From: an uncultured Caulobacterales bacterium
GTDB taxonomy: Bacteria > Pseudomonadota > Alphaproteobacteria > Caulobacterales > Caulobacteraceae
Assembly (NCBI GenBank): GCA_903858685.1
Contig: CAIOJR010000217.1
Coordinates: forward strand, 2,707 to 66,706
DNA length: 64,000 nucleotides
Direction of reading: 5' to 3'
Of this stretch, positions 46,941-64,000 are shown piece by piece. The stretch's first letter is position 1, and every line of letters begins with the position of its first letter. A program made the position numbers and the translations under genes. Below the pieces are notes generated by a model. It saw nothing but the letters and a program-made list of their open reading frames with translations. It searched no databases and was not told the origin of the DNA.

Positions 46941-46996
46941 GAATCATCTTTCGTGGAAACGGCGAACGGACGGACCTGCAAAGCCTTCGAACTCTG

Positions 46997-48282: not shown

Positions 48283-48287
48283 CTTCA

Positions 48288-50854: not shown

Positions 50855-51081
50855 CGATTGCCTCCTGATTTCCCCAACAAGTGCGGCGTCAGAGCGGTTT
50901 CAAATCGGTCGACGGAGCCTTGCCGTTTGAGATCACGCCCATCCGGCCGATGCCAGCGGCATGAGCCCCCAAAGCCCGGACGCGGCACGCCGTTGCGGCC
51001 CCAAGGTTTGTGGCGGTGTCAGGCCGTGACGTGGGCCGCACAGGCGGTCGCCCCGGCGGGCGAGTCTCCAAATTACCATGT

Positions 51082-51759
51082 TCAGCCCGGGATGGACCGC
51101 GTCATGCTCTGCCCCTCCCCGGCGGGCGCCAGTCCGCGTTTCACAAGTGTTTCGACAGCATCAAGGACGGCGAGGGATTCGGCGACGAGATCGAGTCGCC
51201 CCTCGCTATCCACCCACCGCTGATGAACCATGATGTTTCCGCCGACGATCATGTTGGCGATAAGGGTCGGCCGGTAGTCGCGCGCGACATCCAGTGCGAA
51301 ATCTTCGGCGATATAGCCAGCGAGCATTTCGATCTGGCGCCGTTCATAGGTCATCCAGCTGGCGGTGAAATCTTCGTCGGCCCCGAACAGCCGACCCATG
51401 GCAAGGTTTTGCTCCGATCGACGCAGATGTTCGCGACCTGCGTTTTCAGTGAGCCTTCGCATGAAATCGAAGAACCGGCGCTTGCCGCGGTTCTCCGAAA
51501 TGGCCTTCGCCATGGCCTCCAGCACACGCTCGGAGATTGCATCACTGAGGTCACGCTTGGATTTGAAATGGGTGAAGAGCGTGGTGACGTGGACATCCGC
51601 CGCTTCGGCGATGGCCTGCATCGTCGTGTTGGTGAAGCCCACCTGCCGAAAGAGAGACTCAGCCGCCTCAACAATCCGCTGTCGGGTTTCCCGCTTGCGC
51701 CGGGAGCGGCGCGGAAACGACAGCACGGCCTGTTCCGCAGGATCGAGGGCCTTCGACAT
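51082..51759 (-). CDS. TetR-family transcriptional regulator
   Basis: From ORF 51082..51792. I prefer the ATG at 51759, which has GGGAG 6 nt upstream. HTH: FTNTTMQAIAEAADVHVTTLFTHFKSKRDL. Confidence 0.85.
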   Translation of the reverse strand: MSKALDPAEQAVLSFPRRSRRKRETRQRIVEAAESLFRQVGFTNTTMQAIAEAADVHVTTLFTHFKSKRDLSDAISERVLEAMAKAISENRGKRRFFDFMRRLTENAGREHLRRSEQNLAMGRLFGADEDFTASWMTYERRQIEMLAGYIAEDFALDVARDYRPTLIANMIVGGNIMVHQRWVDSEGRLDLVAESLAVLDAVETLVKRGLAPAGEGQSMTRSIPG

Positions 51760-51827
51760 AGCAGACTCCCTAGCCGCGAGGACCGTGACCAAAATTCTAA
51801 GCGCTAAGTTTCATCCATTGCAACCAG

Positions 51828-51873
51828 TAAAATCTATTGTCACGCTAAAATTCTAGTCTAATAGATTATTCTA
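51828..51873. promoter_or_regulatory. Bipartite AT-rich operator candidate, site B: AAAATTCTAG-N9-TTATTCTA, nested in the inverted repeat AATCTATT/AATAGATT
   Basis: The motif occupies 51847-51873. A third partial copy, AAAATTCTAA, is at 51791-51800. The site lies in the divergent region between TetR (start 51759) and the PhyH operon (start 51952). Confidence 0.5.
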
Positions 51874-51951
51874 CACCAAGGGGGAGCCATGTTTGGCGTC
51901 AGGATGACATCAAGCTGTCGTCCTGTCCGGCGCCGGAATTAGGGGTGTGAA

Positions 51952-52782
51952 TTGGGACTGTCAGAGGCTGAAAAGGAACAGTTTCGCAAGCTGGGCTATG
52001 TCATCCGGCCAGGCATGCTGGACTCCGGCCGCGTCGCCGCCGTGTCTGCGGAAATCGACCGGTATGTGACCGTGGAGCCTCTGTTCGATGGGAGCCATAT
52101 CTCCCATTATGACGCGCTCTCAGCACTGGTCGTCGACCCGCTGACCCTTGAGATCACCCAGGACATCATGGGCGATGACAGCTTCAGCTTCCACCACTGC
52201 CACGCCGCCAGACATGATCCCGGCCTGCGCGGCGTGCCCTGGCACCACGACTATGAGCAGATCCCCCAGACCAATCGCAGCCATGTGCAATTGCACGTCC
52301 TGCACTATCTTGACGGTCTGAACGGCACGGTCGGGGATCTGCTGCTCCTGCCCCGCAGTCACCGCTCGGTAATGCGGCGTGACGCCCTGGCCTTTTTGGG
52401 CGACCAGGAGATCCCCGGCACGGTGGTCGTCAACGATCTGCCCCCCGGCAGCGTCGTGTTTGTGCATTCCGCCGTGGTCCACGCCCGCAGGCCTCAGCCG
52501 GGCGGCGGCGATCGCAAGCGCTATTTCATCGACATCGCCTTCGTACAGCACGGGGTCCAATGGCCCTCCTACGGGCGAGAGGGCTGGCGGGACACGCTCG
52601 CCGACATGGACCGCAAACATCATCAGGCCGCTCACCCGCGCCTGTTTGACGCAAACGCCTTTTTTGACATCGCCGACGCGGTCTCCAGGGTGCAGGGCGC
52701 AGCGGGCAGCATCGCCATGCATCTGCCCGAACGCTCAGGCGCTGAGCGTCCGGTTTCGGGCCAGATCCCCATCGTGCAGTGA
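51952..52782 (+). CDS. Phytanoyl-CoA dioxygenase (PhyH) family Fe(II)/2-oxoglutarate oxygenase
   Basis: 276 aa with a TTG start preceded by AGGGG. It has the N-terminal FRKLGYVI, the HxD context PWHHDYE and a distal His in VFVHSAVVHAR. Confidence 0.75.
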   Translation: MGLSEAEKEQFRKLGYVIRPGMLDSGRVAAVSAEIDRYVTVEPLFDGSHISHYDALSALVVDPLTLEITQDIMGDDSFSFHHCHAARHDPGLRGVPWHHDYEQIPQTNRSHVQLHVLHYLDGLNGTVGDLLLLPRSHRSVMRRDALAFLGDQEIPGTVVVNDLPPGSVVFVHSAVVHARRPQPGGGDRKRYFIDIAFVQHGVQWPSYGREGWRDTLADMDRKHHQAAHPRLFDANAFFDIADAVSRVQGAAGSIAMHLPERSGAERPVSGQIPIVQ

Positions 52783-53624
52783 GCTCATCCATGTCCAAGT
52801 TTGCTGAACTCCCCGCGCCTTCAGGGATCGACACGCCTTTCCAACTGGATGATGCGACCGTCGAAGGTTTTCGCAGAAACGGTCACGCCGTGGTGCGCGG
52901 CCTGGCCAGCGCCGAAGAAATCGCCTCGTTTTCGCCGCCGATCCTGGCTCAGGAGAGGGCTCTGGCGGCAAAGGCGCCGCCGCTGGAAGAGCGAACAACC
53001 TATTTCAAGGCCTTTCTCCAGGGGCATAATCTCTGGATGCGGGACCCGGCGATCAAGCCCTTCGTGTTCTCCGCCCGCTTCGCCAGGGTTGCGGCCGAAC
53101 TGCTGGGGGCGCCAGGCGTGCGCCTCTATCATGACCAGTCCCTGACCAAGGAGCCGGGCGGCGGGCATACGCCGTGGCACCAGGACCAGACCTATTGGCC
53201 GCTCGACACAGATGACACCATCACCATGTGGATGCCGCTGGTCGATGTGCCCGCGAGCGTCGGCTCCATGACCTTTGCCGACCAGAGCCACCTCCGGCGC
53301 GACCTTGGGCCCTGGGTGATCGGTGATGAAAGCGAAACCGCCTTTTCGGAAATGGTCGAGCGTGAAGGCTTCTCCACATCGACCCACGGCCCAATGAAGG
53401 CGGGCGACGCGACCTTCCACAGGGGCTGGACCCTGCACCGGGCGCCCGCCAATCCCACAGATCTGGTGCGGTCGGTCATGACCGTGATCTGGTATGCCGA
53501 TGGCGCCAGGGTCAGCGCCGACCTCACTGGCATGCGGGCGATGGACCACCAGTTCTGGCTCAACGCCATTCCACCGGGCGAGGTGGCCGACGGGCCTCTG
53601 AATCCACAGCTCTGGCCGCGATAG
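52779..53624 (+). CDS. Phytanoyl-CoA dioxygenase (PhyH) family Fe(II)/2-oxoglutarate oxygenase, second paralogue
   Basis: 281 aa. The GTG overlaps the upstream stop as GTGA; ATG 52791 is the alternative. Motifs are FRRNGHAVV, TPWHQDQTYWP and TFHRGWTLHRA. Confidence 0.75.
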   Translation: MSSSMSKFAELPAPSGIDTPFQLDDATVEGFRRNGHAVVRGLASAEEIASFSPPILAQERALAAKAPPLEERTTYFKAFLQGHNLWMRDPAIKPFVFSARFARVAAELLGAPGVRLYHDQSLTKEPGGGHTPWHQDQTYWPLDTDDTITMWMPLVDVPASVGSMTFADQSHLRRDLGPWVIGDESETAFSEMVEREGFSTSTHGPMKAGDATFHRGWTLHRAPANPTDLVRSVMTVIWYADGARVSADLTGMRAMDHQFWLNAIPPGEVADGPLNPQLWPR

Positions 53625-53641
53625 ATATTCAGTCAGCAACC

Positions 53642-55876
53642 GTGCTCGATCCAGCCCATCCCGTCTGGCGCCACCCGATTGCGTTTGACACCGCGCCAGT
53701 GTCTTCGGATCAGGGACTGCCGATCGGCAACGGACTGATCGGCGCCAGCCTCTGGGGCAGGCACCCCTGTGTCTGCCTGTCCCTTGACCGGTCCGATCTT
53801 TGGGACATGCGCCCCATCCCCGAATACGAAAGCCCGAACTACAGGTGGGACTATGTCGCCGCGGCCCACCATGCCGCAGAGCATGACAAGCTGAAGACCT
53901 TGCTGGAGGCCCCCTATGACCGGGCGGGTCCGACCCGCCTGTCCGCAGGCCGGCTGGAATTGACCTTTGCCGCCCCCGCCGTGCAATGGCGCCTGGAGCG
54001 GGCCACGGGTCTGGCCCGAGTTGATTTTGCCGACGGCGCTGTCCTGCAAGCGCTGATCCCCGCAAATGGCGGTCTTGGCCGCCTGACAGTGAACGGACAG
54101 GCGCCCATGGCGCGGCTGATCCCTCCCCCGTTCGGCGGCCCGCCGCAAGGCTTGCCGCCCCCTAGCGGGTTCAATCTCAGTCAGCACAATGCCTGGGATC
54201 TGGGCTATCCGCCGCCCCAGACCCTGTCCGAAGACGGGCTGGAGGGCTTTCTCCAGCAAGGCTTCGGCGGATTCGCCTTTGCCGCGGTCCTGGCGCAGGA
54301 GACCAGGGGACGAATCTGGAGCGGAGCATGGGCCGTCGAGACCGGCGCCTCCGCAGACCCAGACCTCTTGCAGGAGACGGCCGAAGCCGCCCGATCCGCC
54401 CTGGCCCGTGATTTCGACAAGGACGCCTCGGCCCTGGCGGACTGGTGGGCGGACTATTGGTCAAGGGGGCGTGTCAGCCTTCCCGAAGCCTTAGTCGAAC
54501 AAACCTACTATGCCGGCATGTCGCAATTCGGCGCCGCCGCCCGCCGCGGTCGACCGCCGGTGGCCCTGCAGGGGGTATGGACCAGTGATTGCGGCCGTCT
54601 GCCTCCGTGGAAGGGCGATTATCATCATGATCTGAACACCCAGATGACCTATTGGCCCGCCTATGTCGGCGACCAGCTCGAGGGCGGATTGGGCTTTCTC
54701 GACTGGCTCTGGGCGACGCGGGAGGCGTGCAAGGCATGGACGCTGCGTTTCTTTGGCGTGGAGGGCCTGAACGCCCCCATGACGGCCGATATCGCCAACC
54801 GTCAGATCGGAGGATGGCGCCAGTACACCCATTCCGTGTCGACCAGCGCCTGGCTCGCTCATCATTTCCATCTGCACTGGCGCTACAGCCTGGACCATCA
54901 GTTCCTGGCTGAACGGGCCTATCCCTATCTCAGCGCCGTCTGCCAGTTCGTGCAAGCCATTACCGAGACCCGCGATGAACAGGGGTTTCGCACCGTGGCC
55001 CTGTCGTCCTCTCCCGAAGTCGGGGACAATCAGCCCCAGGCCTGGTTCACGACCTGGAGCAACTATGACCTGACCCTTTTCCGCTGGGTTCTGGGGGCGG
55101 CTGCAGACATGGCGCTGGCCTTGTCGTTGCCGGACCAGGCCGATCATTGGCGCCAGATCCTGGCAGAGCTTCCTTCGGTCAGCCTGTCGGATAACCATGC
55201 CCTTCTGATCGCCCCTGGGCTTGCCTATCCCGGACACCACCGCCACTTCTCTCACGCCGTCGGGGTGCACCCTCTTGGCCTGTTCGACGGTCTTGACGGC
55301 TCGCAAGCAGACCGCCGGATCGCCATGGGCACATTCGAAGAGATCAAGGCGGCGTCGGGGGATTTCTGGATGGGTTACAGCCATGCCTGGGCGGCGGCTA
55401 TAGCCGCCAGGGCGGGTGATGGAGAGACTGCCCGCCAAAGCCTGCTCGATTATGGCGCCGCCTTCGTCTTTCCCAACGGCTTCCACGCCAATGGCGACTG
55501 GCAGGGCCTGGGCTATGGCAAGGCCCCTTTCGGGGCCTTCACGATCGAAGGCGCCATGGGGGCTTGCGACGCCATTCAGACCATGTTGCTGCAAAGCGCA
55601 CCGGGCCGCCTTCGCCTGTTTCCCGCCCTTCCCGAAGCCTGGACCGATCTGTCCTTTGACGCCTTGCGCGCCGATGGTGCGGTTCTGGTGTCGGCCGTCA
55701 TCGACGCGGGCCGATTGACGCGGGTCGCCCTGAGGCCTCACGCTTCGGGCAAGGTCCAAGTCGCCTTTGGAGACCGGGCGCCCGCCCTCGAACTTCAATT
55801 GGCGGCCGGGACATTTGTCGAACTCACGGCCGATGAACTGTCGCGTCTCGAAACCGCCCCGCACCAGACGCATTGA
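53642..55876 (+). CDS. GH95-like six-hairpin glycosidase (alpha-L-fucosidase-like)
   Basis: 744 aa. The N-terminal LPIGNGLIGASLWG and the central LQGVWTSDCGRLPPWKGDYHHDLNTQMTYWPAY resemble GH95 signatures as I recall them. Confidence 0.65.
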   Translation: MLDPAHPVWRHPIAFDTAPVSSDQGLPIGNGLIGASLWGRHPCVCLSLDRSDLWDMRPIPEYESPNYRWDYVAAAHHAAEHDKLKTLLEAPYDRAGPTRLSAGRLELTFAAPAVQWRLERATGLARVDFADGAVLQALIPANGGLGRLTVNGQAPMARLIPPPFGGPPQGLPPPSGFNLSQHNAWDLGYPPPQTLSEDGLEGFLQQGFGGFAFAAVLAQETRGRIWSGAWAVETGASADPDLLQETAEAARSALARDFDKDASALADWWADYWSRGRVSLPEALVEQTYYAGMSQFGAAARRGRPPVALQGVWTSDCGRLPPWKGDYHHDLNTQMTYWPAYVGDQLEGGLGFLDWLWATREACKAWTLRFFGVEGLNAPMTADIANRQIGGWRQYTHSVSTSAWLAHHFHLHWRYSLDHQFLAERAYPYLSAVCQFVQAITETRDEQGFRTVALSSSPEVGDNQPQAWFTTWSNYDLTLFRWVLGAAADMALALSLPDQADHWRQILAELPSVSLSDNHALLIAPGLAYPGHHRHFSHAVGVHPLGLFDGLDGSQADRRIAMGTFEEIKAASGDFWMGYSHAWAAAIAARAGDGETARQSLLDYGAAFVFPNGFHANGDWQGLGYGKAPFGAFTIEGAMGACDAIQTMLLQSAPGRLRLFPALPEAWTDLSFDALRADGAVLVSAVIDAGRLTRVALRPHASGKVQVAFGDRAPALELQLAAGTFVELTADELSRLETAPHQTH

Positions 55877-55929
55877 CATCGACCCGATGTCACCCCCGCA
55901 GCTGGCCTGCGTGACCAAAGGAGCGTGGC

Positions 55930-56697
55930 ATGGCCCCGCAAAGGTTCGATCTTACCGGCCGCATCGCCCTGGTGACCGGGTCCTCGCGCGGAATCGGTCT
56001 GGCCCTGGCCCGCGGACTTGGCGAAGCGGGGGCCCGGATATTGCTGAACGCGCGAGACGCGGCGAGAACGGAGGCGGCGGCGCAGGCGTTGCGGGACGAC
56101 GGTCTTGACGCTCTCGCCTGCCCCTTTGACGTCACAGACCCGCAAGAGGTCGCCGACGGACTGGCGAATTGTGAGCAGCTCATGGGTCCTCTGGACATTC
56201 TGATCAACAATGCCGGCATACAGCGCCGCGGCCCGCTGCTCGACATGCCCGAAGAGACGTGGGCCGAAGTGCTCGACACAAACCTGACGGCCGTCTTTCG
56301 CGTGGGACGGGAGGCGGCTCGCCGGATGGCGTCCCGGAAAAGGGGCAAGATCATCAATATCGCGTCCCTCATGAGCGAGGTCGCTCGTCCAGGGGTGGCT
56401 CCCTATGCGGCGGCCAAGGGAGGCGTGAGGCTGCTGACCCGGGCGATGTGCGTCGAGTGGGCCCCGCTGGGCATCAATGTCAACGCCATAGGACCGGGCT
56501 ATTTCGCGACCGAGCTCAATGCGGACCTCGTCGCCGATGCGACATTCGACGCCTGGATCCGCGCGCGCACCCCTGCCGGGCGTTGGGGCAAGGTCGATGA
56601 ACTGGTCGGCGCCGCAGTATTCCTCGCCTCGGACGCCGCCAGCTTCGTCCATGGTCAGGTCCTCTATGTGGACGGCGGCGTATTGGCTGGCCTTTAG
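55930..56697 (+). CDS. Short-chain dehydrogenase/reductase (KduD/gluconate-5-dehydrogenase-like)
   Basis: 255 aa with motifs TGSSRGIGLA, NNAG and YAAAKGG. Confidence 0.85.
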   Translation: MAPQRFDLTGRIALVTGSSRGIGLALARGLGEAGARILLNARDAARTEAAAQALRDDGLDALACPFDVTDPQEVADGLANCEQLMGPLDILINNAGIQRRGPLLDMPEETWAEVLDTNLTAVFRVGREAARRMASRKRGKIINIASLMSEVARPGVAPYAAAKGGVRLLTRAMCVEWAPLGINVNAIGPGYFATELNADLVADATFDAWIRARTPAGRWGKVDELVGAAVFLASDAASFVHGQVLYVDGGVLAGL

Positions 56698-56729
56698 GCC
56701 CCGGCCCCCGTCCAGCCGTCAGTCGGACG

Positions 56730-57854
56730 TCAGACCGACAGGTCGGTCCAGCCGCGCTGCTCCCGGCTGGCCAGGACGCAGCGCTCAACAAAGGCCATGC
56801 TCCGAACACCAGCCTCGATATCGGGCAGGTCAGGCGCGTCCCCGTCACCCCGGACAACCGCGGCGAAGTCCCGATATATATTGGCAAAGGCCAAGATAAG
56901 GGGGGCAAACGGACCCGCGAGTCCCGGGGCGCGACGGGCCGTCTCCGCGATATGTCCGGCCTCTTGGACCACTGTCTCGACGCCGCCATCCAGGCGGCTG
57001 AGCAACAGCTGGTCCGGGGTCTTGACACTCCAGTCCAGCGCCCCCGTGTCCCCGTAGACCCGAAGCTGCAGCGTGTTCATCTCACCAACCGCAATCTGGG
57101 AGGCGATCAGCACCCCCCGAGCGCCATTGGCGAAGCGCAGCAGAACCGTCGCATCATCGTCCAGTCGGCGCCCGCCCACGACACTTCCCAGGTCCGCCAG
57201 CACCTGGGCGACCGGCTGACCCGAGACAAATTCCGCCAGGTTGAAGGCGTGGACGCCGATGTCGGCGATACATCCGCCTATCCCGGATTTTTCGGGGTCA
57301 ACGCGCCAGGCGGCCTGCTTGTTTCCGGCCGTCTCCACCGCCGCCGCCAGCCAGGCCTGGGAATATTCCACCACGACCTTGCGCACCTGGCCAATCGCTC
57401 CGGACGCCACAAGCCTGCGCGCCTCCCGGACCATCGGAAAACCGGTATAGGTAAAAGTCAGGGCATAGGGGCGCCCGGACCGGCGAACAGAGCGTGCAAG
57501 TTCCTCCGCTTCGGCCAGAGTGGCCGTGGCCGGCTTGTCGGAAATCACCGCCAGACCCGCCGCCAACGCCGCCTGCGCCGCCGACAGGTGCAGATGGTTG
57601 GGAGTGGCGATCGCCACCAGCTCAATCCCGTCCGGTCGCCCGACTTCCGCGGCCAGCATGGACTCAACCCCGCCATAGGCGCGCGCAGGGTCGACGCCAT
57701 AGCTTTGAGCCGATTGCGCGGATCGCTCAGGATCGCTGCTGAACGTCCCCGCCACCAGGGCGATCTGGCCATCCAGCTCCGCCGCGATGCGGTGCACTGG
57801 TCCGATAAGAGACCCCTTGCCGCCCCCGATCATTCCCAGTCTCAGACGGCGCAT
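56730..57854 (-). CDS. Gfo/Idh/MocA-family NAD(P)-dependent oxidoreductase
   Basis: 374 aa with an N-terminal Rossmann motif LRLGMIGGGKGSLIG and an EKP-like context in VISDKPATATLAEAEEL. Confidence 0.85.
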   Translation of the reverse strand: MRRLRLGMIGGGKGSLIGPVHRIAAELDGQIALVAGTFSSDPERSAQSAQSYGVDPARAYGGVESMLAAEVGRPDGIELVAIATPNHLHLSAAQAALAAGLAVISDKPATATLAEAEELARSVRRSGRPYALTFTYTGFPMVREARRLVASGAIGQVRKVVVEYSQAWLAAAVETAGNKQAAWRVDPEKSGIGGCIADIGVHAFNLAEFVSGQPVAQVLADLGSVVGGRRLDDDATVLLRFANGARGVLIASQIAVGEMNTLQLRVYGDTGALDWSVKTPDQLLLSRLDGGVETVVQEAGHIAETARRAPGLAGPFAPLILAFANIYRDFAAVVRGDGDAPDLPDIEAGVRSMAFVERCVLASREQRGWTDLSV

Positions 57855-58043: not shown

Positions 58044-59795
58044 TCAACAATTAAGCCAATCCATCAAGGCAGACAGCGCCAATTCTCGACTGGAGGACCG
58101 GGCCAGTCCGTGGTCCAGGGTCGGCTCAACCCTAATCATCAGGTTAGCGGCATGGCGCATGCGGGCGCCATGGGTTCCGAAATGAGCGTTCACCTCATCG
58201 AGTGATGAATCGTCCAGTCCCACCAGAAAGGCCGCCCGTCCGCCGCGGGCGAGAAACGCCTGCAAAATGGAACTTGGCGACCTGGACACCGAGGCCTGGC
58301 GCGCAACCCTCCATCGGCGCAGGCCCCTCGAAATGAGCGTCCGTAGCACGGCGTAAACATCAATCCTGCCTTGCAGCAGACGGCGCCATGCGCTGGGCGA
58401 CAGCGCCGCCGACCTATAGGCGAGGGTCGCCCGCCCCTGGTCCGTCCGGCCGAAGGTCAGCGCATCGCCTTTTCGCCATGTCAGTCTGGCGGGGCTGACG
58501 GCGAAGATGCCGCAGACCCGCTCATTTTCAGCTTCCAGAAGCACATGATAGGCGCCCGAGCAGACGCCGACCAGAAAGATTTCCTGGCTTCCTGCGCTTT
58601 TGAGCAGCGCGACAGCCGCCGCCAGATCGTCACGCCGGGGGGTCTCATAGACATGCGTCCGAAGATGCGGCGTCGGGGCGGGACTGTCGCCCAGTCCTGC
58701 GAAATCGAATCGCAGACAGGTGATCCCCTGGCTGGCGAGGCGACGCGACGCTGTCGTGGCGAACCCCCCGATGCCCGCGCGAGGCTCGCCTCCCGTATTG
58801 CAAAAAATCACTCCTCTGGCGCGGTCCGCCCCGTGATGTGGAACGGTCAGAATCCCTTGTAAGCTGGAGCCAAATGCTATGGGTCTTTCGAAATAGTCGT
58901 CACAGGCGAGCAAGGGTTCTGGTTGGGCCAGACCGGTCGAAGGGGTGTCGTCGGGCCGCGGTTGCCGCGTTTCGGCGCCAAATCTATCGGCCATCCAGTC
59001 ACAGACGCGGTCAAAGAGTGACTGAGGAACCTGGTTGCTGTGGGTGTCGAGAAACAGCGCCTCAAGGCCTGCAAAATCGCTGACCGTCGCGTCAACGCCG
59101 CCATCGACCAGGGAAGCGGCGAACCTTTCCGACAACAGGTTGTGAGTGGCCATCAGAACCGGTGCGCCGGGAAGGGCGAGGTCCTTCAGATTCATCCTGG
59201 ACAGGCTGTCAGCGGTCGCCTTGTTCAGGAGGACGCCGTCGATATCCAGCGCCATCGCCGATGTCTGCGGCGCCTCGCGTCCCGCCTGCATCGAAAACTG
59301 TTGCTGTCTGAGCCAGGATCGTCCGCTCAGCACGGGCGCCAGCAATATGAGTCCGTCTGCCTGGGTCGCCTGGGCGTAGGCCAAGGTCGCGCCCAGGCGA
59401 ACTCCAGCCAGCACGACACGTCGAACATGGGTCATCCGGCGGAGATGGTCGATCGCCCGCTCGATATCTTCAAGCCATGTTTGCACCGCGTCGGTGTCAT
59501 CCGCATCCGGCAATGGCAGGGAATCCCCCTCGCCCCGGTGGTCGTATCGCAGCGTGGGAAATCCGTGCGCGGCGAGTTGATCGGCCAGAATCCGCATCGG
59601 CGCGTGGACGCAGCGCTCGTCACGTCCGATCGGCGACACAATCACGACGCCTGTATCCAGACTCGCACTCTGGGCATTGTGCAGCCAGCCAAACAGCCCG
59701 GCAAAGGTCGCAGGCTGCATGCCTTCGGCTGCGGGAGTCTGAACGCTCAAGGTTTCGACCTGCTTTGGCGCAATATGTATAACAACCTGGTTCAC
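58044..59795 (-). CDS. Fused double alpha/beta-hydrolase-fold protein (resembles the exosortase-A-associated hydrolase 2 + hydrolase 1 pair)
   Basis: 583 aa in two halves, each with the pattern (V/I)xxxP/NxG...RxDxxGxGDS: TLRYDHRGEGDS and CLRFDFAGLGDS. The elbow of half 1 is VLAGVRLGATLA, with Arg at the nucleophile position. The elbow of half 2 is FLVGVCSGAYHV, with Cys. A late His occurs in PTLDHGL. Confidence 0.6.
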   Translation of the reverse strand: MNQVVIHIAPKQVETLSVQTPAAEGMQPATFAGLFGWLHNAQSASLDTGVVIVSPIGRDERCVHAPMRILADQLAAHGFPTLRYDHRGEGDSLPLPDADDTDAVQTWLEDIERAIDHLRRMTHVRRVVLAGVRLGATLAYAQATQADGLILLAPVLSGRSWLRQQQFSMQAGREAPQTSAMALDIDGVLLNKATADSLSRMNLKDLALPGAPVLMATHNLLSERFAASLVDGGVDATVSDFAGLEALFLDTHSNQVPQSLFDRVCDWMADRFGAETRQPRPDDTPSTGLAQPEPLLACDDYFERPIAFGSSLQGILTVPHHGADRARGVIFCNTGGEPRAGIGGFATTASRRLASQGITCLRFDFAGLGDSPAPTPHLRTHVYETPRRDDLAAAVALLKSAGSQEIFLVGVCSGAYHVLLEAENERVCGIFAVSPARLTWRKGDALTFGRTDQGRATLAYRSAALSPSAWRRLLQGRIDVYAVLRTLISRGLRRWRVARQASVSRSPSSILQAFLARGGRAAFLVGLDDSSLDEVNAHFGTHGARMRHAANLMIRVEPTLDHGLARSSSRELALSALMDWLNC

Positions 59796-59958
59796 ATACT
59801 GTGCAATGCAAACATTGTGCCGATCAGTTTATCTTCCCGTGATCAAAGCCTCCCATTTTTGAACTGAAACGGCTTACACACCCATTGGGATCAAGCATAT
59901 ATTAGCCGTGCGCAGTCATGGATAGTGGCTTCATTCCAGGGTTTAGATCGAATTGCTC

Positions 59959-60219
59959 ATGTCCACCTTCGCCGTCATTGAACGTCAAATTCAGATCATC
60001 GCCAAAGTGCAGGGCAAGCACATCGCCCCCCTGACCGGCGGCCTTGTGCTGCTGGACAGCGGCCTCGATTCCATGAGCCTGGCCATTCTGGTGGGCAGAC
60101 TTGAAGACGAGCTGGGCGTCGACCCGTTTGCGGAGGCTGACGATCAGGCTTTTCCGACGACGCTGGGAGACCTGGTCACCTTTTATGACCGGGCGATCGA
60201 AGCCCGAAACCAGCCATAG
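59959..60219 (+). CDS. Acyl/aminoacyl carrier protein (phosphopantetheine-binding)
   Basis: From ORF 59953..60219; I prefer the ATG at 59959. LLDSGLDSMSLAILVGRLEDELGV contains a canonical DS(L/M) attachment serine in a helix-II context. GC3 is high. The antisense 158-aa ORF was rejected. Confidence 0.7.
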   Translation: MSTFAVIERQIQIIAKVQGKHIAPLTGGLVLLDSGLDSMSLAILVGRLEDELGVDPFAEADDQAFPTTLGDLVTFYDRAIEARNQP

Positions 60220-60230
60220 GCCCGCATGGG

Positions 60231-61154
60231 CTAAAGGCCGAGCAGAGTCAGAACGGGCTGCGGCCAGGCTGACAGATCCAGGCCGTGGTGCGCGAACATG
60301 GCGATGGTCATGCGATCCATGCCGAAGCCGACACAACCGGTATGGGCCGGTCCGCCACGCGCAAGATGGATGTCCCAAGCCTCCCCAAAATGGCTCTTGT
60401 GATAATTGAAGCTCATGCAGGCCGTGGGTTTATCGTGTGACAGGATCGGAATCAGCAGCTCAAATTTCAATTTCTGTTCGCGCTGTCCAGCGGCCAGAAA
60501 CTGACCGCCCGCCCCGAAAAACGGATCGTTGGCGACGTCGACACTGTAGGGGAGCTGCAACTGCTCTGCCATGGACTGAGCCTTGACGATCCAGTCATCG
60601 CGAAACCGACAAACCGTTTCAGGAGAACCAATGCAGACATATTCCCGCTGGCGGAAAGACTGCATCCGGTCGATGTCGCGAGAGGGCTCACGCCGAAAAC
60701 ACTCGCAACCGACATCAAATATCCAACCCTGATCCGGCGCTGCGCCCTTGGCGGCGGCGATGGGATAGACCGGGTAACAGCTGGCGGGAGTAAGGACGAG
60801 ATCGGCGACCCCCAGTCCCTCAGTCCAGGGCTCGCCTTCATATATCCGGTTTGCGGTGCGCCTGATCTCCGCGGGCGATCCCGCCAGACAGCACATGAAT
60901 CCCACAAGATTGGGAAAACTCTGCAAATAGCCAGACTTTTCAATGTCGCTGCGGCTCATGACCGGCGGGAAACGATAGACCTCGGCAGCCTCGGGTCGGA
61001 ATGTGGAGATGAAGTCCGTCAGCCCATCCAGAACCCGTTCATAAAGCCCGGTCCGGGCGCGCACGCCGTCTGCGCCCATGGGGCGGAACAAGACCTGTTC
61101 CAGATTTGCCAAGCGCTCATCATTCGACACTTGAGAACCAACGAACCCACTCAT
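60231..61154 (-). CDS. Amino acid--[carrier protein] ligase (truncated class II, SerRS-like aaRS homologue)
   Basis: 307 aa, a catalytic core without a tRNA-binding arm. Class II motif 2 is GCECFRREPSRDIDRMQSFRQREYV and motif 3 is GCVGFGMDRMTIAMF. Candidate Zn ligands are Cys in PASCYPVY, Glu in CFRRE and Cys in HTGCVGFG, as I recall for methanogen-type SerRS and aa:CP ligases. Confidence 0.75.
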   Translation of the reverse strand: MSGFVGSQVSNDERLANLEQVLFRPMGADGVRARTGLYERVLDGLTDFISTFRPEAAEVYRFPPVMSRSDIEKSGYLQSFPNLVGFMCCLAGSPAEIRRTANRIYEGEPWTEGLGVADLVLTPASCYPVYPIAAAKGAAPDQGWIFDVGCECFRREPSRDIDRMQSFRQREYVCIGSPETVCRFRDDWIVKAQSMAEQLQLPYSVDVANDPFFGAGGQFLAAGQREQKLKFELLIPILSHDKPTACMSFNYHKSHFGEAWDIHLARGGPAHTGCVGFGMDRMTIAMFAHHGLDLSAWPQPVLTLLGL

Positions 61155-61217
61155 ATTCGCTCCTATCGGCGATTCATGGCGTGACGACGCCTATGCCGAA
61201 TATCGACGCCACAAGAT

Positions 61218-61925
61218 CTAGGCGTCATCAGCAAACAACTTGTCCGCAGCAGAATAGCTGCTGGGCAGGCCGATATCGATGAAGGCGCCTTCAAACTCCA
61301 GTCCCGCCAGCCCGCCCGTGCGACATGCGTGAGGCAGGATGTCAGACTCCAGGGAACAGGAGGTCAGACCTGACGGCAGCCCCGCCTTATCTATGCGGTA
61401 GGCGCCGCCATTGATCAGACCCGCCTTTTTCTCGCCAGAACGGGCAACAATGCGACAGACGCGACGGTCGTCCAGCTCTACCGTTTCGTAGCGATCAGCC
61501 AGATCCAGTCGCTTCAGCCCGAGCACGATCGGGGCCAGATCGGCGTCAGCCAGGCTGCGCCAGTCGAAGTCGAACCAGGTGTCGCCATTGACGAGCAGGA
61601 AGGTCTGATCGAGCCGGTCCCGTGCAAAAAGCAGGGCGCCGCCTGTTCCCATCGGCTCAGGCTCGATCGAAAGGTCGATCTGAATTCCCAGGCGCTCAGC
61701 GATGGCGCTTTCCGCAAGCCAGTGCGCAACCACGTCAGCACGAAAACCGGCCAACAGGACGATGCGTGTCAACCCGCTCAGAGCCGCCTTTTTCAGAAGA
61801 TGGGCCAAGAAGGGCGCTCGGCCGATCGGCAGCATCGGCTTGGGCGTCTCGCGCGTCAGGTCTCCCAGGCGGCTTCCAGCCCCCCCGATGAGGATCGCAC
61901 ATTGGGTGACGGGACCCGGCGTCAC
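61218..61925 (-). CDS. Sugar-1-phosphate nucleotidyltransferase (HddC/GmhD-like)
   Basis: 235 aa with a GTG start that overlaps the upstream stop as GTGA. The N-terminal signature is AILIGGAGSRLGDLTRETPKPMLPIG. Confidence 0.8.
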   Translation of the reverse strand: MTPGPVTQCAILIGGAGSRLGDLTRETPKPMLPIGRAPFLAHLLKKAALSGLTRIVLLAGFRADVVAHWLAESAIAERLGIQIDLSIEPEPMGTGGALLFARDRLDQTFLLVNGDTWFDFDWRSLADADLAPIVLGLKRLDLADRYETVELDDRRVCRIVARSGEKKAGLINGGAYRIDKAGLPSGLTSCSLESDILPHACRTGGLAGLEFEGAFIDIGLPSSYSAADKLFADDA

Positions 61926-62995
61926 CGGGGCACCGTCCAGGCTTCCGCGCCGTCAAATGTGAACTTCACAGAGCTGGCCTGCCCGCCCGCCCGGTTCAGG
62001 GTCGTGATCAGATTGTAACGGTTCTCCGGATCCGTGCAGAACATGAGAAATCCCCCACCGCCCGCGCCCGAGATCTTCCCGCCATAGGCGCCATGGGCCA
62101 TCGCCTGCTCGAAGAGCGCCTCGACCGCAGAGGTGGAGACGCCCTTCGCGGTGCGACGCTTGGCCTCCCAGGATCGCATGAGAATCTCGCCGATTTGTCG
62201 GATATCGCCATCCAGCATGGCCCGACGCATGGATGCCGCGTCCGCCTTCAGCCGATGCATGTTGTCGATCGTCTCGGCGTTCAAGGTTCGCAGACCGTCA
62301 ATCTGCTCCTGAATGATCACGTCCGAGCGGCGCGACTGACCGGAAAAACAGATGACAATCGAGGCTTCGAGTTCGTTCAGATGCGCCCGCGGGAACCTCA
62401 GCGGGCTGACGAGAACGCGCTCATCAGCAAGAAATTCCAGAAAATTGATCCCGCCGAACGCGGCGGCGTAGTGATCCTGTCGACCGCCCGCCAGACCGAT
62501 CTCTATCCGTTCAATGTCGAACGCCGTGCGGGCGACCTCATGGGGCCCGAGCGGCAGATCAAGCGCATGGCGAAAGGCTTCCACCAGCGCCACCACCAGG
62601 GCTGATGACGATCCCAGCCCCGAACCGGCCGGCGCGTCGATTGTGGAGGTGACCGTCAGCGCCTGGGGTTGGCCATCCAGATAGTGCTTCACCATGTGGC
62701 TGTAGACCGCCTTGTGCAGCACCAGACCGCCGTCCAGCGGCAAGGCCTCGCCAAGCTGATAGGTCTCTTCCGCGCCCAGATCACTGGCCCGGAAAGTTGT
62801 GGTCCCCTCTCGGGTGGACGACACATGTGCAAAGGCGAACCGATCAATGGTGGCGTTCAGCACCGCCCCGCCGAACTGATCGCAATAGGGCGACAGGTCC
62901 GTTCCGCCGCCTGCAAGCCCCAGACGCAAGGGCGCGCGCGCTCGAACATCGAACTGCCGCTCCCGCCCGGTCTTGGCCATGATGAGACGTCCCAT
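61922..62995 (-). CDS. GHMP-family sugar kinase (HddA-like)
   Basis: From ORF 61922..63034. The start is uncertain: ATG 62995 or 62980 both avoid overlap with the PAP2 gene. Motifs are RAPLRLGLAGGGTDL, PAGSGLGSSSALVVALV and GGKISGAGGGGFLMF. Confidence 0.8.
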   Translation of the reverse strand: MGRLIMAKTGRERQFDVRARAPLRLGLAGGGTDLSPYCDQFGGAVLNATIDRFAFAHVSSTREGTTTFRASDLGAEETYQLGEALPLDGGLVLHKAVYSHMVKHYLDGQPQALTVTSTIDAPAGSGLGSSSALVVALVEAFRHALDLPLGPHEVARTAFDIERIEIGLAGGRQDHYAAAFGGINFLEFLADERVLVSPLRFPRAHLNELEASIVICFSGQSRRSDVIIQEQIDGLRTLNAETIDNMHRLKADAASMRRAMLDGDIRQIGEILMRSWEAKRRTAKGVSTSAVEALFEQAMAHGAYGGKISGAGGGGFLMFCTDPENRYNLITTLNRAGGQASSVKFTFDGAEAWTVPR

Positions 62996-62999
62996 TTCC

Positions 63000-63569
63000 C
63001 TAGATGACCGTCGCGCCCGACAGCCGAACCCCAAACAGCAACGGCGCCAGCGAAGCCACCGTCAGTCCCACCATCAATTCGATCGCGGGCGCCTGAAAAC
63101 TATTCGCCGGCCCTCTCACCGTCGCGACCATCAGGCCAAGCGGGACGGACGCCACCGCCAGACCCGCCGCCACATCGGCCATGGTGTGATGATGAAGCGT
63201 CACCCGCGTCACCGCCACGGCGGCCACGACGCCCAGGCAGCCCAGCGCGCCGAGCCTGTTGGCGAGCGTCGATCCGGTGCGGACGAAAAGCCACGCCGAA
63301 AACCCGAAAACGAAGGTCGCCATGGCCGCATGTCCGCTTGGCGCACCGCGCGTCAGCATCCATTGCCGGGCCAGCCAGGGCTCAGGCGAGCCGGACGCCG
63401 CGACCGCTTTCAACACCGCGACAAAAATCGCCAGCAGGGTCAGGCATAGCAGGGTCGCCAGACCGATCACAGGCCTTAGCCGGGTGGCGCACCACACCGC
63501 CACGAACAGACCCGCAGAACCGACGATGGCCAGGTCGCCCAGGTCCGTCACCATGGCCGCAAGCTTCAT
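63000..63569 (-). CDS. PAP2-family membrane phosphatase
   Basis: 189 aa with about 6 TM segments. PAP2 motifs are PSGHAAMA and TRVTLHHHTMADV. The ATG overlaps the upstream stop as ATGA. Confidence 0.8.
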   Translation of the reverse strand: MKLAAMVTDLGDLAIVGSAGLFVAVWCATRLRPVIGLATLLCLTLLAIFVAVLKAVAASGSPEPWLARQWMLTRGAPSGHAAMATFVFGFSAWLFVRTGSTLANRLGALGCLGVVAAVAVTRVTLHHHTMADVAAGLAVASVPLGLMVATVRGPANSFQAPAIELMVGLTVASLAPLLFGVRLSGATVI

Positions 63570-64000
63570 GCCGACTGACCCAGTAATTGCACGCCGCCGC
63601 GCGCGATCTCATAATGCAGTCGGGGCATGTTCTGGGACGCCATATAGGCCTCCAGTTCCTCACCCGGCCCAGGGGTGAACAACATCAGAAACCCCCCGCC
63701 GCCCGCGCCGATGATCTTGCCGCCCGTCACCCCGTGGGCGCTTCGGACGTGATCATACAACAGGTCAATCGCAGGCCAGCTGATCTTCTGGGACATGCGC
63801 TTCTTGCTCAGCCAGTGCTCGTGCAGCATCTGGCCCCACCCTTCCAGGTCGCCTCGCACCCAGGCGTCACGGATTCTGAAGCCCAGGTCCTTGATGGCGT
63901 CCAGGCTATCGCCAACAGTGGCCTGCCGGTCCTGGCTGGCGCCCTTCATCGCCGAGTTCTGATCGTCCAATATGCCCGACGCGTCCCGGCGCAGTCCGGT
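63566..64000 (-). CDS. Second GHMP-family sugar kinase; N-terminal part lies beyond the window end
   Basis: The frame stays open past ORF-track start 63970 up to base 64000 (..TGLRRDASGILDDQNSAMKG..). The C-terminal GHMP motif is GGKIIGAGGGGFLMLFT. Confidence 0.75.
   Translation of the reverse strand, partial: TGLRRDASGILDDQNSAMKGASQDRQATVGDSLDAIKDLGFRIRDAWVRGDLEGWGQMLHEHWLSKKRMSQKISWPAIDLLYDHVRSAHGVTGGKIIGAGGGGFLMLFTPGPGEELEAYMASQNMPRLHYEIARGGVQLLGQSA

What the first reader, a model, noticed from the sequence alone, without database searches (positions are those of the whole stretch)
58044..64000. Candidate undescribed system: carrier-protein aminoacylation module coupled to a sugar-activation operon
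Seen in the sequence: five minus-strand genes run in series. They are a GHMP kinase (63566 to beyond 64000), PAP2 (63000-63569, ATGA overlap), a second GHMP kinase (61922-62995), a nucleotidyltransferase (61218-61925, GTGA overlap) and, after 63 nt, an aaRS-like amino acid:carrier-protein ligase (60231-61154). A carrier-protein gene converges on the ligase with an 11-nt gap (59959-60219, +). A 583-aa double alpha/beta hydrolase is transcribed divergently from the carrier gene (58044-59795, -).

Established knowledge, from memory: aa:CP ligases are SerRS-like enzymes that load small amino acids onto dedicated carrier proteins (Mocibob et al., PNAS 2010), and to my knowledge the fate of the aminoacyl-S-carrier has not been established. 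Exosortase-A-type EPS loci pair two unrelated alpha/beta hydrolases with an ACP and an AMP-forming ligase.

Inference: here the aaRS-like enzyme takes the ligase role and the two hydrolases are fused. The tight linkage to kinase, nucleotidyltransferase and PAP2 genes suggests aminoacyl decoration of an NDP-sugar-derived glycan or of a polyprenyl-phosphate-linked intermediate.
Basis: partly seen in the sequence, partly recalled or inferred. Interest (0 to 1): 0.8.

Follow-up and report, generated by a model that had tools for sequence, protein, structure and literature searches.

The report
Carrier-protein ligase module beside heptose operon
A tRNA-synthetase-like enzyme that loads small amino acids onto a carrier protein sits here with a carrier protein and a two-domain cysteine "hydrolase", right after the sugar (heptose) genes of a surface-polysaccharide locus, and relatives show the same link in several gene orders, which gives a testable idea of what these ligases are for.

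Summary
All seven genes are at the stated coordinates and match the stated families. The 307-aa protein is a true amino acid:[carrier protein] ligase (NF005479 above cutoff; 59% identical to Bll0957).

1. The kinase-PAP2-kinase-nucleotidyltransferase genes are the 3' end of a conserved Caulobacteraceae NDP-heptose-type operon. That operon belongs to a Wzy-dependent polysaccharide locus.
2. The carrier protein is not the canonical aminoacyl carrier type. It is the type that normally precedes an AMP-ligase and a short-chain dehydrogenase. The acyl-CoA-dehydrogenase-like gene, found upstream of the ligase in 75 of 80 relatives, is missing.
3. The fused hydrolase belongs to a large family. Its N domain has Arg in place of the nucleophile. 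Its C domain has a Cys-Asp-His triad, which suggests thioester transacylation.

Direct ligase-to-sugar-gene adjacency occurs only here (0 of 80 genomes). The hydrolase, with or without the ligase, is nevertheless linked to heptose or polysaccharide loci in at least five different gene orders and in both ligase clades.

Best reading, at about 40% confidence: a reduced carrier-protein transacylation module that adds an amino acid to a heptose-containing polysaccharide. Main rival: a remnant of a small-molecule gene cluster. All evidence is genomic.

The parts
63566..64000 (-). K1: 3' part of a GHMP sugar kinase. The gene runs beyond the window end.
   Evidence: GHMP_kinases_C. 72-73% identical to the K1 gene of the Caulobacter operon TAL-NT1-HAD-SIS-K1-K2-NT2.
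63000..63569 (-). PAP2-family membrane phosphatase. It overlaps K1 by 4 nt.
   Evidence: PF01569, 33.4 bits against 27.2. A PAP2 gene sits at the same K1-PAP2-K2 position in Phenylobacterium (L175-L177) and after K1 in L099/L118. It is absent from Caulobacter L089/L090.
61922..62995 (-). K2: HddA-like GHMP sugar kinase.
   Evidence: NF049969 340 bits (cutoff 600) plus GHMP_kinases_N/C. 72-77% identical orthologues in Caulobacter, Phenylobacterium, Brevundimonas and Xanthobacter.
61218..61925 (-). NT2: HddC-like sugar-1-phosphate nucleotidyltransferase. It overlaps K2 by 4 nt.
   Evidence: NTP_transferase; NF049965 117 bits (cutoff 300). 49-58% identical to the last gene of the heptose-type operon in L089, L090 and L175.
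61155..61217 (-). 63-nt spacer between NT2 and the ligase. It carries AGGAG 6 nt before the ATG.
   Evidence: Sequence read. No terminator-like or promoter-like site was found here. Co-transcription is inferred, not shown.
60231..61154 (-). Amino acid:[carrier protein] ligase, a truncated class II SerRS-like core of the Bll0957 type.
   Evidence: NF005479 422.9 bits against 357. 59% identical over 293 aa to Bll0957 structures 3mey/4h2w, E 1e-114. C126, E171 and C274 are invariant in 35 homologues.
59959..60219 (+). 86-aa carrier protein (Ser38 in GLDSMS). It converges on the ligase with an 11-nt gap.
   Evidence: PP-binding 22.7 against 20.8. 55-63% identical to the CP that precedes AMP-ligase and SDR genes in related clusters, and only 33% to the canonical aminoacyl-CP type. 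Best PDB hit is MacpD, not 4h2s_C or Atu2571.
59796..59958 (.). AT-rich (48% GC) divergent intergenic region between the hydrolase and CP genes. It holds one promoter-like site at 59875-59903 (+).
   Evidence: This is a consensus match only.
58941..59720 (-). Hydrolase N domain (about aa 26-285). Alpha/beta fold with Arg133 at the nucleophile elbow (G-V-R-L-G).
   Evidence: TIGR03101-like 77 bits; Hydrolase_4. Arg is invariant in 38 homologues and present in 113 of 127 diverse family representatives. AF2 model pLDDT 85.9.
58044..58898 (-). Hydrolase C domain (about aa 300-583). Alpha/beta fold with Cys412 (G-V-C-S-G), Asp529 and His562.
   Evidence: TIGR03100-like 124.7 bits. Cys in 125/127, Asp in 121/127 and His in 125/127 representatives. 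Codons verified.

Best explanation
Two units abut here.

Unit 1 (61218 to beyond 64000) is the 3' end of a conserved NDP-heptose-type sugar-activation operon. In relatives it reads transaldolase, NT1, GmhB-like HAD, GmhA-like SIS, K1, (PAP2), K2, NT2. It belongs to a Wzy-dependent surface-polysaccharide locus.

Unit 2 (58044-61154) is a reduced carrier-protein transacylation module.

Proposed mechanism:
1. The Bll0957-type ligase adenylates a small amino acid (Gly or Ala type) and thioesterifies it onto the phosphopantetheine arm of a carrier protein.
2. Cys412 of the hydrolase C domain takes over the aminoacyl group by thioester exchange.
3. The enzyme passes the group to a hydroxyl of the heptose-containing repeat unit, or of its nucleotide- or lipid-linked precursor, on the cytoplasmic side.
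4. The N domain, which has Arg instead of a nucleophile, binds the acceptor or the carrier protein.

Shown: the family identities, the conserved catalytic residues and the recurrent gene linkage.

Inferred: the amino acid, the use of this non-canonical CP by the ligase, the transfer chemistry, the acceptor and co-transcription with the sugar operon.
For: - The ligase is a family member and close to the glycine/alanine-loading enzymes (PMC5370406).
- The hydrolase family keeps a Cys-Asp-His triad in the C domain and has no nucleophile in the N domain. The two-domain alpha/beta model is confident.
- Of 80 metagenome loci with the hydrolase, 31 carry the ligase, 30 an ACAD and 26 a canonical CP within the flanks.
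- The link to heptose or polysaccharide genes appears in different architectures:
  (A) this window.
  (B) L099/L118: large cluster ...HTS-CysMet-hydrolase converging on PAP2-K1-SIS-HAD-NT1-TAL-GT2-Bac_transf.
  (C) L105-L115 and L127: CP-ACAD-ligase-hydrolase converging on NT2-K2-K1-SIS-HAD-NT1-TAL-GT2-GT2-Bac_transf.
  (D) Caulobacter L087/L091/L117: the module lies at the other end of the same locus.
  (E) L131: hydrolase between two AT3 O-acyltransferases, with the ligase next to Wzz, inside a different Wzx/Wzy cluster.
  (F) P. aquaticum L178: hydrolase alone beside GH10-PCP-Poly_export.
  Also L159 and L166.
- Hydrolases of these classes are only 34-56% identical.
- Linked ligases fall in both major ligase clades.
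- In the window there is no terminator between NT2 and the ligase, and the ligase has a good Shine-Dalgarno sequence.
- Carrier-protein-dependent glycine addition to a surface glycolipid has a precedent in AlmEFG (PMC4278540).
Against: - No experiment supports this; everything is gene context.
- Direct ligase-sugar adjacency is unique to this genome and a near-identical 2-kb contig.
- In 80 species genomes the ligase neighbourhood is ACAD (75), Cys/Met-PLP enzyme (40), Abhydrolase_3 (38), SDR (32), AMP ligases (31 and 29), HTS (31), class IV aminotransferase (23) and TPP enzyme (19). None has heptose or export genes. That pattern looks like small-molecule biosynthesis.
- The window's ligase belongs to that clade.
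- The window lacks the ACAD and the validated CP type. Its only CP is the type that normally partners an AMP ligase and an SDR, so the ligase may have no cognate acceptor nearby.
- Most heptose-linked loci share K1 at 72-77% identity and are likely one bacterial family, so part of the linkage may be inherited synteny.
- Two of six annotated distant hydrolase loci have no polysaccharide genes (L147, L172).
- Structural neighbours are generic esterases and lipases.
Confidence: 0.4

Rival explanations
1. The trio is a remnant of a small-molecule biosynthetic cluster. In relatives the full cluster reads ACAD-ligase, canonical CP, Abhydrolase_3, AMP ligase, CP-AMP ligase-SDR, TPP enzyme, class IV aminotransferase, HTS, Cys/Met-PLP enzyme, with or without the double hydrolase. 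It lies next to the heptose operon only through local synteny and gene loss. It either makes a cytoplasmic or secreted metabolite unrelated to the polysaccharide, or it no longer works as a pathway.
For: - The ligase census in 80 genomes shows this cluster and no sugar genes.
- The window's ligase and hydrolase are closest to members of that cluster: L083, L096/L098 and L099 (63-65% and 50-52% identity).
- The window keeps the same relative orientations as L099 (ligase and hydrolase on one strand, CP on the other). It looks like L099 minus SDR-AMP ligase and minus TPP-AT4-HTS-CysMet.
- Other reduced variants exist, such as L102 and L112.
- The CP is the AMP-ligase partner type.
Against: - All three genes are intact and keep their catalytic residues.
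- The spacers are compact, with no pseudogene debris.
- Linkage of the hydrolase and ligase to polysaccharide loci recurs in other architectures, in the second ligase clade and in a non-homologous Wzx/Wzy cluster.
- In L099 the full cluster itself abuts the heptose operon.
Confidence: 0.3
2. The double hydrolase is a thioesterase or editing enzyme of the type II thioesterase kind. It releases or proofreads what is bound to the carrier protein. The product is a free small molecule, and nothing is transferred to a sugar.
For: It has an alpha/beta-hydrolase fold. Its structural and sequence neighbours are esterases, lipases and the thioesterase DcsB. It often ends CP-ACAD-ligase-hydrolase operons.
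Against: - The near-universal Cys nucleophile and the conserved non-catalytic second domain are unusual for simple thioesterases.
- From memory, Cys-nucleophile alpha/beta enzymes include the transferases PhaC and SyrC/CmaE.
- The gene sits among polysaccharide-modifying genes. It is flanked by two AT3 acyltransferases in L131. In P. aquaticum it stands alone beside GH10-PCP-Poly_export with no CP or ligase within 10 kb upstream of it.
Confidence: 0.15
3. The module modifies a lipid or polyprenyl-phosphate carrier, or lipid A or LPS core, rather than the polysaccharide repeat unit. The PAP2 phosphatase would prepare the acceptor.
For: PAP2 is embedded in the operon here, in Phenylobacterium, and next to the hydrolase in L099/L118. 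AlmEFG adds glycine to lipid A through a carrier protein (PMC4278540).
Against: PAP2 is absent from classes C, D and E, which still keep the hydrolase-polysaccharide link. No lipid A or core genes were seen nearby.
Confidence: 0.1

Closest known systems
Amino acid:[carrier protein] ligases Bll0957, Bll6282 and Atu2573 (Mocibob et al. 2010, 2013; structures 3mey, 4h2s-4h2y)
   Same: The ligase is a true member. It passes NF005479, is 59% identical to Bll0957, has a truncated SerRS-like core, and keeps the Cys/Glu/Cys positions.
   Different: The adjacent CP is not the Bsr0959/Atu2571 aminoacyl-CP type. The ACAD-like gene upstream of the ligase in 75 of 80 relatives is absent. The ligase follows a heptose-type operon instead.
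Exosortase A (XrtA/PEP-CTERM) EPS-locus module: hydrolase 1 (TIGR03100), hydrolase 2 (TIGR03101), ACP, AMP-forming ligase (TIGR03098), PLP decarboxylase
   Same: The two domains of the 583-aa protein are the best matches to these two models, in the order hydr2-like then hydr1-like. A distant fused homologue sits with GNAT-ACP-PLP decarboxylase-AMP ligase-ACAD (L158). Both are associated with polysaccharide loci.
   Different: Both scores are below the family cutoffs. The two domains are fused. The ligase is aaRS-like rather than AMP-forming ANL type. No exosortase or PEP-CTERM genes were seen in the window. The function of the XrtA module is itself uncharacterised, to my knowledge.
AlmEFG (Vibrio cholerae lipid A glycylation) and DltABCD (D-alanylation of teichoic acids)
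   Same: The logic is the same: a ligase loads a small amino acid onto a dedicated carrier protein, and a transferase puts it on a cell-surface glycoconjugate (PMC4278540).
   Different: AlmE and DltA are ANL-superfamily adenylating enzymes, not class II aaRS-like. From memory, the transferases are LpxL-type (AlmG) or MBOAT plus DltD, not a Cys-dependent alpha/beta-fold protein. No homology exists beyond the CP fold.
GDP-D-glycero-alpha-D-manno-heptose pathway (GmhA, HddA, GmhB, HddC)
   Same: K2 and NT2 have HddA and HddC as their best named matches. Orthologous operons add GmhA-like SIS, GmhB-like HAD and a transaldolase.
   Different: All scores are far below equivalog cutoffs. There are two kinases and two nucleotidyltransferases, plus a PAP2 gene in this lineage. 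The sugar made is not established.
SyrC/CmaE aminoacyl shuttles and PhaC (alpha/beta-fold enzymes with a Cys nucleophile; recalled from memory)
   Same: They have a G-x-C-x-G nucleophile elbow with His and Asp, and they accept acyl or aminoacyl thioesters.
   Different: Homology to these proteins was not tested here. They have no second Arg-containing pseudo-hydrolase domain.

Membership tests
Amino acid:[carrier protein] ligase (NF005479) | Whole-protein score above the curated equivalog cutoff | tested here: met
   422.9 bits against 357, covering 290 of 318 model positions.
Amino acid:[carrier protein] ligase (NF005479) | SerRS-like class II catalytic core without the tRNA-binding N-terminal domain | tested here: met
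   The 307-aa protein aligns only to positions 259-502 of the 518-position SerRS model and to residues 307-507 of the type-2 SerRS structure 3w3s.
Amino acid:[carrier protein] ligase (NF005479) | Zinc-binding Cys/Glu/Cys of the active site (Bll0957 Cys131, Glu176, Cys279; identities recalled from memory) | tested here: met
   C126, E171 and C274 align to those positions and are invariant in 35 homologues.
Amino acid:[carrier protein] ligase (NF005479) | Neighbouring cognate aminoacyl carrier protein of the Bsr0959/Atu2571 type | tested here: not met
   The window CP gives no hit to 4h2s_C, 4h2w_C or 2jq4 at E<=1, whereas the ACAD-divergent CP of L083 does. No second CP is present in the 64 kb. 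This is a context feature and does not disqualify the enzyme.
Amino acid:[carrier protein] ligase (NF005479) | ATP-dependent aminoacylation of holo-CP and no tRNA charging | not testable with these tools
   Requires biochemistry.
Phosphopantetheine-binding carrier protein (PF00550) | Score above gathering threshold and a conserved Ser in the D-S-x motif | tested here: met
   22.7 bits against 20.8. Ser38 lies in GLDSMS. 55-63% identical homologues exist.
Exosortase A-associated hydrolase 1 / hydrolase 2 (TIGR03100 / TIGR03101) | Scores above the curated cutoffs | tested here: not met
   124.7 against 168.45, and 77 against 202.75. The protein is related to these families but not a member.
Exosortase A-associated hydrolase 1 / hydrolase 2 (TIGR03100 / TIGR03101) | Location in an XrtA/PEP-CTERM EPS locus with TIGR03098 ligase, ACP and decarboxylase | tested here: not met
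   None of these was found among the window ORFs that were scanned. The window was not exhaustively scanned for XrtA.
GDP-D-glycero-alpha-D-manno-heptose pathway (HddA/HddC equivalogs) | Equivalog-level scores for kinase and guanylyltransferase | tested here: not met
   K2 scores 340 against 600. NT2 scores 117 against 300. K1 of L090 scores 113 against 600.
GDP-D-glycero-alpha-D-manno-heptose pathway (HddA/HddC equivalogs) | Operon partners GmhA (SIS isomerase) and GmhB (HAD phosphatase) | tested here: inconclusive
   Both are present upstream of K1 in orthologous operons (L089, L090, L099, L109, L175), with weak GmhA and moderate GmhB scores. The corresponding part of this contig lies beyond position 64000.
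Dlt / AlmEFG carrier-protein aminoacylation systems | ANL-superfamily (AMP-binding) D-Ala or Gly carrier ligase | tested here: not met
   The ligase matches only tRNA-synt_2b and NF005479. No AMP-binding gene lies in 58-64 kb.
Dlt / AlmEFG carrier-protein aminoacylation systems | MBOAT/DltD or LpxL-type transferase | tested here: not met
   The only candidate transferase is the alpha/beta-fold double hydrolase.

The most novel reading that the evidence does not exclude
aaRS-derived aa:CP ligases, whose biological role has been open since 2010, supply aminoacyl groups that a dedicated Cys-dependent two-domain alpha/beta-fold transferase esterifies onto heptose-containing capsular or exopolysaccharides on the cytoplasmic side. 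This would be a third, evolutionarily independent route to amino-acid decoration of bacterial surface glycans, beside Dlt and AlmEFG. It would also explain the related, uncharacterised ACP/hydrolase modules of XrtA polysaccharide loci.
Probability: 0.3. Interest if true: 0.8.

Novelty: new variant of a known kind. Interest (0 to 1): 0.6.

Why it matters
The function of amino acid:[carrier protein] ligases is still described as unknown (PMC9437257). This locus and its relatives tie the ligase, through a large and uncharacterised family of Cys-triad double hydrolases, to Wzy-dependent polysaccharide and heptose loci. Some of these loci are in cultivable Caulobacter and Phenylobacterium. That turns an open question into concrete knock-out and mass-spectrometry experiments. 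If confirmed, it would add a new enzymology for amino-acid decoration of surface glycans, which can affect charge, phage and antimicrobial-peptide susceptibility and biofilm properties. It would also give a first functional handle on the exosortase-A-associated hydrolase 1/2 modules. If refuted, the same data point to a widespread unexplored small-molecule gene cluster in soil Alphaproteobacteria.

Tried and rejected
- Ordinary SerRS fragment or pseudogene: rejected. NF005479 is above cutoff, identity to Bll0957 is 59%, the ORF is intact and the active-site residues are conserved.
- The CP as the canonical cognate aminoacyl-CP: rejected.
0 of 80 genomes show it. Phenylobacterium has the same K1-PAP2-K2-NT operon followed by a non-ligase gene.
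- Extending the contig beyond 64000: failed. Exact-protein look-up returned only a 2.1-kb near-identical contig.
- Foldseek and PDB profile searches of the hydrolase gave only generic esterases and lipases, with no informative relative.
- Rfam on the whole window gave no hits.
- The promoter and terminator scan found no more sites than the shuffled controls.
- Literature searches for a described role of aa:CP ligases, DUF1839 or the XrtA ACP/hydrolase module found nothing beyond 'unknown' and one context-based guess for DUF1839. The PNAS 2010 paper could not be read.
- A GC dip over the ligase (56-60% against 62-68% in neighbours) is too weak to call horizontal transfer.
- Whether standalone hydr1_PEP proteins share the Cys nucleophile could not be tested with the searches left.

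Full report
OBSERVATION.
All seven ORFs are at the coordinates and strands given. The overlaps and gaps are as described: ATGA between K1 and PAP2, GTGA between K2 and NT, 63 nt between NT and ligase, and 11 nt between the convergent CP and ligase.

Profile searches confirm the family assignments:
- The 307-aa protein passes NCBIfam NF005479, 'amino acid--[acyl-carrier-protein] ligase' (422.9 bits, cutoff 357).
- The 86-aa ORF passes PP-binding (22.7 against 20.8).
- The 583-aa protein has two alpha/beta-hydrolase domains. Their best named matches are exosortase-A hydrolase 2 for the N half (77 bits) and hydrolase 1 for the C half (124.7 bits). Both are below cutoff.
- The others are NTP_transferase (HddC-like), GHMP kinase (HddA-like, 340 bits), PAP2, and a GHMP kinase C-terminal part cut by the window end.

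THE LIGASE.
It is 59% identical over 293 residues to Bll0957 of Bradyrhizobium, whose structures with and without carrier protein are in the PDB. It aligns only to the catalytic half of SerRS. C126, E171 and C274 align with what I recall as the zinc ligands of Bll0957, and they are invariant in 35 homologues.

The family is very large, with more than 5,900 90%-clusters among the scored candidates. Reviews still call its biological role unknown (PMC9437257). They state that the enzymes load Gly or Ala onto the phosphopantetheine arm (PMC5370406).

THE SUGAR GENES.
K2 has 72-77% identical orthologues in Caulobacter, Phenylobacterium, Brevundimonas and Xanthobacter. In Caulobacter hibisci and a related contig the context is Poly_export, 416-aa protein, Wzy_C, WecG, Bac_transf, GT2, GT2, transaldolase, NT1, HAD, SIS, K1, K2, NT2. 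K1, K2 and NT2 are 72%, 73% and 49-56% identical to the window genes.

NCBIfam names the partners as follows:
- transaldolase, above cutoff;
- GmhB-like HAD and weakly GmhA-like SIS;
- K2 and NT2 are closest to HddA and HddC;
- K1 and NT1 form a second kinase/nucleotidyltransferase pair.

Phenylobacterium MAGs have exactly the window's K1-PAP2-K2-NT2 order, but the next gene is not a ligase. So the window's 'sugar-activation operon' is the tail of a self-standing heptose-type operon of a Wzy-dependent polysaccharide locus. Its 3' flank varies between genomes.

THE USUAL CONTEXT OF THE LIGASE.
I examined 80 species-representative genomes carrying a 56-64% identical ligase. None has a kinase, NT, PAP2, SIS, HAD, TAL, Wzy or Poly_export homologue within 10 kb.

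Instead, an acyl-CoA-dehydrogenase-like gene lies directly upstream of the ligase in 75 of 80. The following recur (examples):

| Neighbour | Loci out of 80 |
|---|---|
| Cys/Met-PLP enzyme | 40 |
| Abhydrolase_3 | 38 |
| SDR | 32 |
| 476-aa AMP ligase | 31 |
| HTS | 31 |
| 603-aa AMP ligase | 29 |
| class IV aminotransferase | 23 |
| TPP enzyme | 19 |

The double hydrolase is present in only 2 of the 80. The window has no ACAD, DUF1839, Abhydrolase_3 or AMP ligase anywhere in its 64 kb.

THE CARRIER PROTEIN.
The CP that diverges from the ACAD gene in relatives matches the solved 'aminoacyl carrier protein 1' (4h2s_C, E 2e-10) and Atu2571. The window CP does not. Its best PDB hit is MacpD. It is 55-63% identical to the CP that precedes the 476-aa AMP ligase and SDR in related clusters, and only 33% identical to the canonical type. 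It is the only CP in the window.

In L099 the order is ligase, then on the other strand SDR, AMP ligase and CP. The window looks like that arrangement without SDR and AMP ligase. Whether the ligase charges this CP is therefore an open inference, not a given.

THE DOUBLE HYDROLASE.
The fusion is a large family. It has 1,059 representatives at 50% clustering with E<=1e-30, and nearly all of the top 150 are full-length two-domain proteins.

In 38 close and 127 diverse members the pattern is constant:
- The N-domain nucleophile elbow reads G-x-R-x-G. Arg is invariant in the 38 and present in 113 of the 127.
- The C domain reads G-x-C-x-G, with Cys in 125 of 127.
- Asp529 is kept in 121 of 127 and His562 in 125 of 127.

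AlphaFold gives a confident two-domain alpha/beta model (pLDDT 85.9, pTM 0.89). Solved structures offer only generic esterase, lipase and thioesterase neighbours at 14-20% identity. There is no signal peptide or membrane segment evident in the sequence.

A Cys-His-Asp alpha/beta enzyme next to carrier proteins suggests thioester exchange. From memory, mechanistic precedents are SyrC/CmaE and PhaC.

THE LINK TO POLYSACCHARIDE LOCI.
I fetched 80 metagenome loci with the hydrolase. Within the often truncated flanks, 31 have the ligase, 30 an ACAD, 26 a canonical CP, 10 DUF1839, and 9-10 the heptose genes.

Distinct architectures keep the module near the heptose or polysaccharide locus:
- (B) L099/L118: the full small-molecule-like cluster ends HTS-CysMet-hydrolase. 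It converges on PAP2-K1-SIS-HAD-NT1-TAL...GT2...Bac_transf.
- (C) L105-L115 and L127: CP-ACAD-ligase-hydrolase converges on NT2-K2-K1-SIS-HAD-NT1-TAL-GT2-GT2-Bac_transf.
- (D) Caulobacter: GH2-like, DUF1839, ligase and CP diverge from ACAD-hydrolase. These are followed by GH10, a chain-length determinant, and then the same locus that ends in the heptose operon.
- (E) L131, a distant relative (hydrolase 35%, ligase 49%): the hydrolase lies between an AT3-SGNH and an AT3 O-acyltransferase, and the ligase lies beside Wzz. Both are inside a different cluster with Bac_transf, WecG, GT4, Wzx, Wzy and Poly_export.
- (F) P. aquaticum: the hydrolase stands alone beside GH10, PCP and Poly_export.
- L159 and L166 are further polysaccharide contexts.

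Hydrolases of these classes share 34-56% identity. In an NJ tree the linked ligases fall in both major clades. The window groups with the Bll0957/large-cluster clade, next to L083, L096/L098 and L099.

L158 shows the fused hydrolase with GNAT, ACP, PLP decarboxylase, AMP ligase and ACAD.

Two counter-examples, L147 and L172, have no polysaccharide genes.

INTERPRETATION.
The most economical reading is that the double hydrolase is a carrier-protein-dependent transacylase associated with polysaccharide loci. It can be fed by different loading enzymes: aaRS-like ligase with or without ACAD, or AMP ligase plus decarboxylase. The window holds a minimal version placed directly behind the heptose operon.

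No terminator separates NT2 and the ligase, and the ligase has its own Shine-Dalgarno sequence. The CP and hydrolase are transcribed divergently from an AT-rich 163-nt spacer.

The proposed chemistry has four steps: amino acid, aminoacyl-AMP, aminoacyl-S-CP, aminoacyl-S-Cys412, then an ester on a heptose-containing intermediate on the cytoplasmic side. It parallels AlmEFG in logic (PMC4278540) but uses unrelated enzymes.

The step from aminoacyl-S-CP onward, the acceptor and even the CP pairing are inferences. I put this reading at about 0.4.

The main rival, at about 0.3, is that the trio is a reduced remnant of the widespread small-molecule-like cluster and that proximity to the heptose operon is inherited synteny within one bacterial family. 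Two smaller rivals are a pure thioesterase role (0.15) and a lipid or polyprenyl acceptor involving PAP2 (0.1).

COMPARISON WITH KNOWN SYSTEMS AND NOVELTY.
- The ligase is a member of the aa:CP ligase family.
- The hydrolase is related to, but not a member of, TIGR03100/TIGR03101.
- The sugar genes are heptose-pathway-like, below equivalog level.
- The whole works like Dlt/AlmEFG but shares no catalytic components with them.

In the literature I could search, no paper connects aa:CP ligases to polysaccharide loci. [quoted passage not shown]

I rate this a new variant of a known kind: carrier-protein-dependent decoration of surface glycans. Interest is moderately high because it makes the open question of aa:CP ligase function directly testable. 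The evidence is purely contextual, and this particular locus is an atypical, reduced example.

Noticed in passing
L002-L081, L082, L083, L086, L093-L099 (relatives of window 60231-61154): A widespread conserved cluster surrounds aa:CP ligases in Alpha-, Gamma- and Betaproteobacteria. It comprises ACAD-ligase, canonical CP, Abhydrolase_3, a 603-aa AMP ligase, CP-476-aa AMP ligase-SDR (MacpD/MupQ/MupS-like by memory), TPP enzyme, class IV aminotransferase, HTS and a Cys/Met-PLP enzyme. I could not find its product described anywhere.
   Followed up: partly
window 63000-63569; L175-L177 9421-9990 (L175 coordinates); L099 11703-12263: A small PAP2 phosphatase gene is inserted between the two GHMP kinases of the heptose-type operon in this genome and in Phenylobacterium. 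In L099/L118 it follows K1 directly. It is absent from Caulobacter. Its role in a cytoplasmic sugar-nucleotide operon is unexplained.
   Followed up: partly
L089/L090 6325-11800; window 61218-64000: The heptose-type operon carries two GHMP kinases and two nucleotidyltransferases plus a dedicated transaldolase. All are well below HddA/HddC/GmhA equivalog scores. It may make two activated sugars or a non-canonical heptose.
   Followed up: partly
L158 7172-16654: A fused double hydrolase lies next to GNAT, ACP, two Orn/DAP-type PLP decarboxylases, an AMP ligase, an ACAD-like gene and a deoxyhypusine-synthase homologue. This resembles an exosortase-A-type acyl module combined with polyamine-type enzymes.
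   Followed up: no
L087 3915-7333; L173 4189-7502; L154, L171: DUF1839 (papain-like fold) and an ~820-aa GH2_N2-like protein regularly follow CP-ACAD-ligase in the second ligase clade. This suggests further glycan-directed components of the system.
   Followed up: no
window 40505-42661 (+): A 718-aa protein has DinB_2, FGE-sulfatase and C-terminal SAM-methyltransferase domains. From memory, this is the architecture of OvoA (ovothiol biosynthesis).
   Followed up: no
window 44841-57854: The region left of the module is a carbohydrate-use region: GH3, a xylose-isomerase-like TIM barrel, beta-lactamase-fold protein, MFS_2 transporter, two PhyH dioxygenases, GH95, SDR and a Gfo/Idh/MocA oxidoreductase. 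The polysaccharide-related block therefore ends at about 58 kb.
   Followed up: partly
L178 5147-8605: In P. aquaticum a UbiA, FAD_binding_4, SDR and GtrA set lies just upstream of the double hydrolase and polysaccharide locus. By memory this resembles the decaprenyl-phosphoribose epimerase/arabinose pathway.
   Followed up: no
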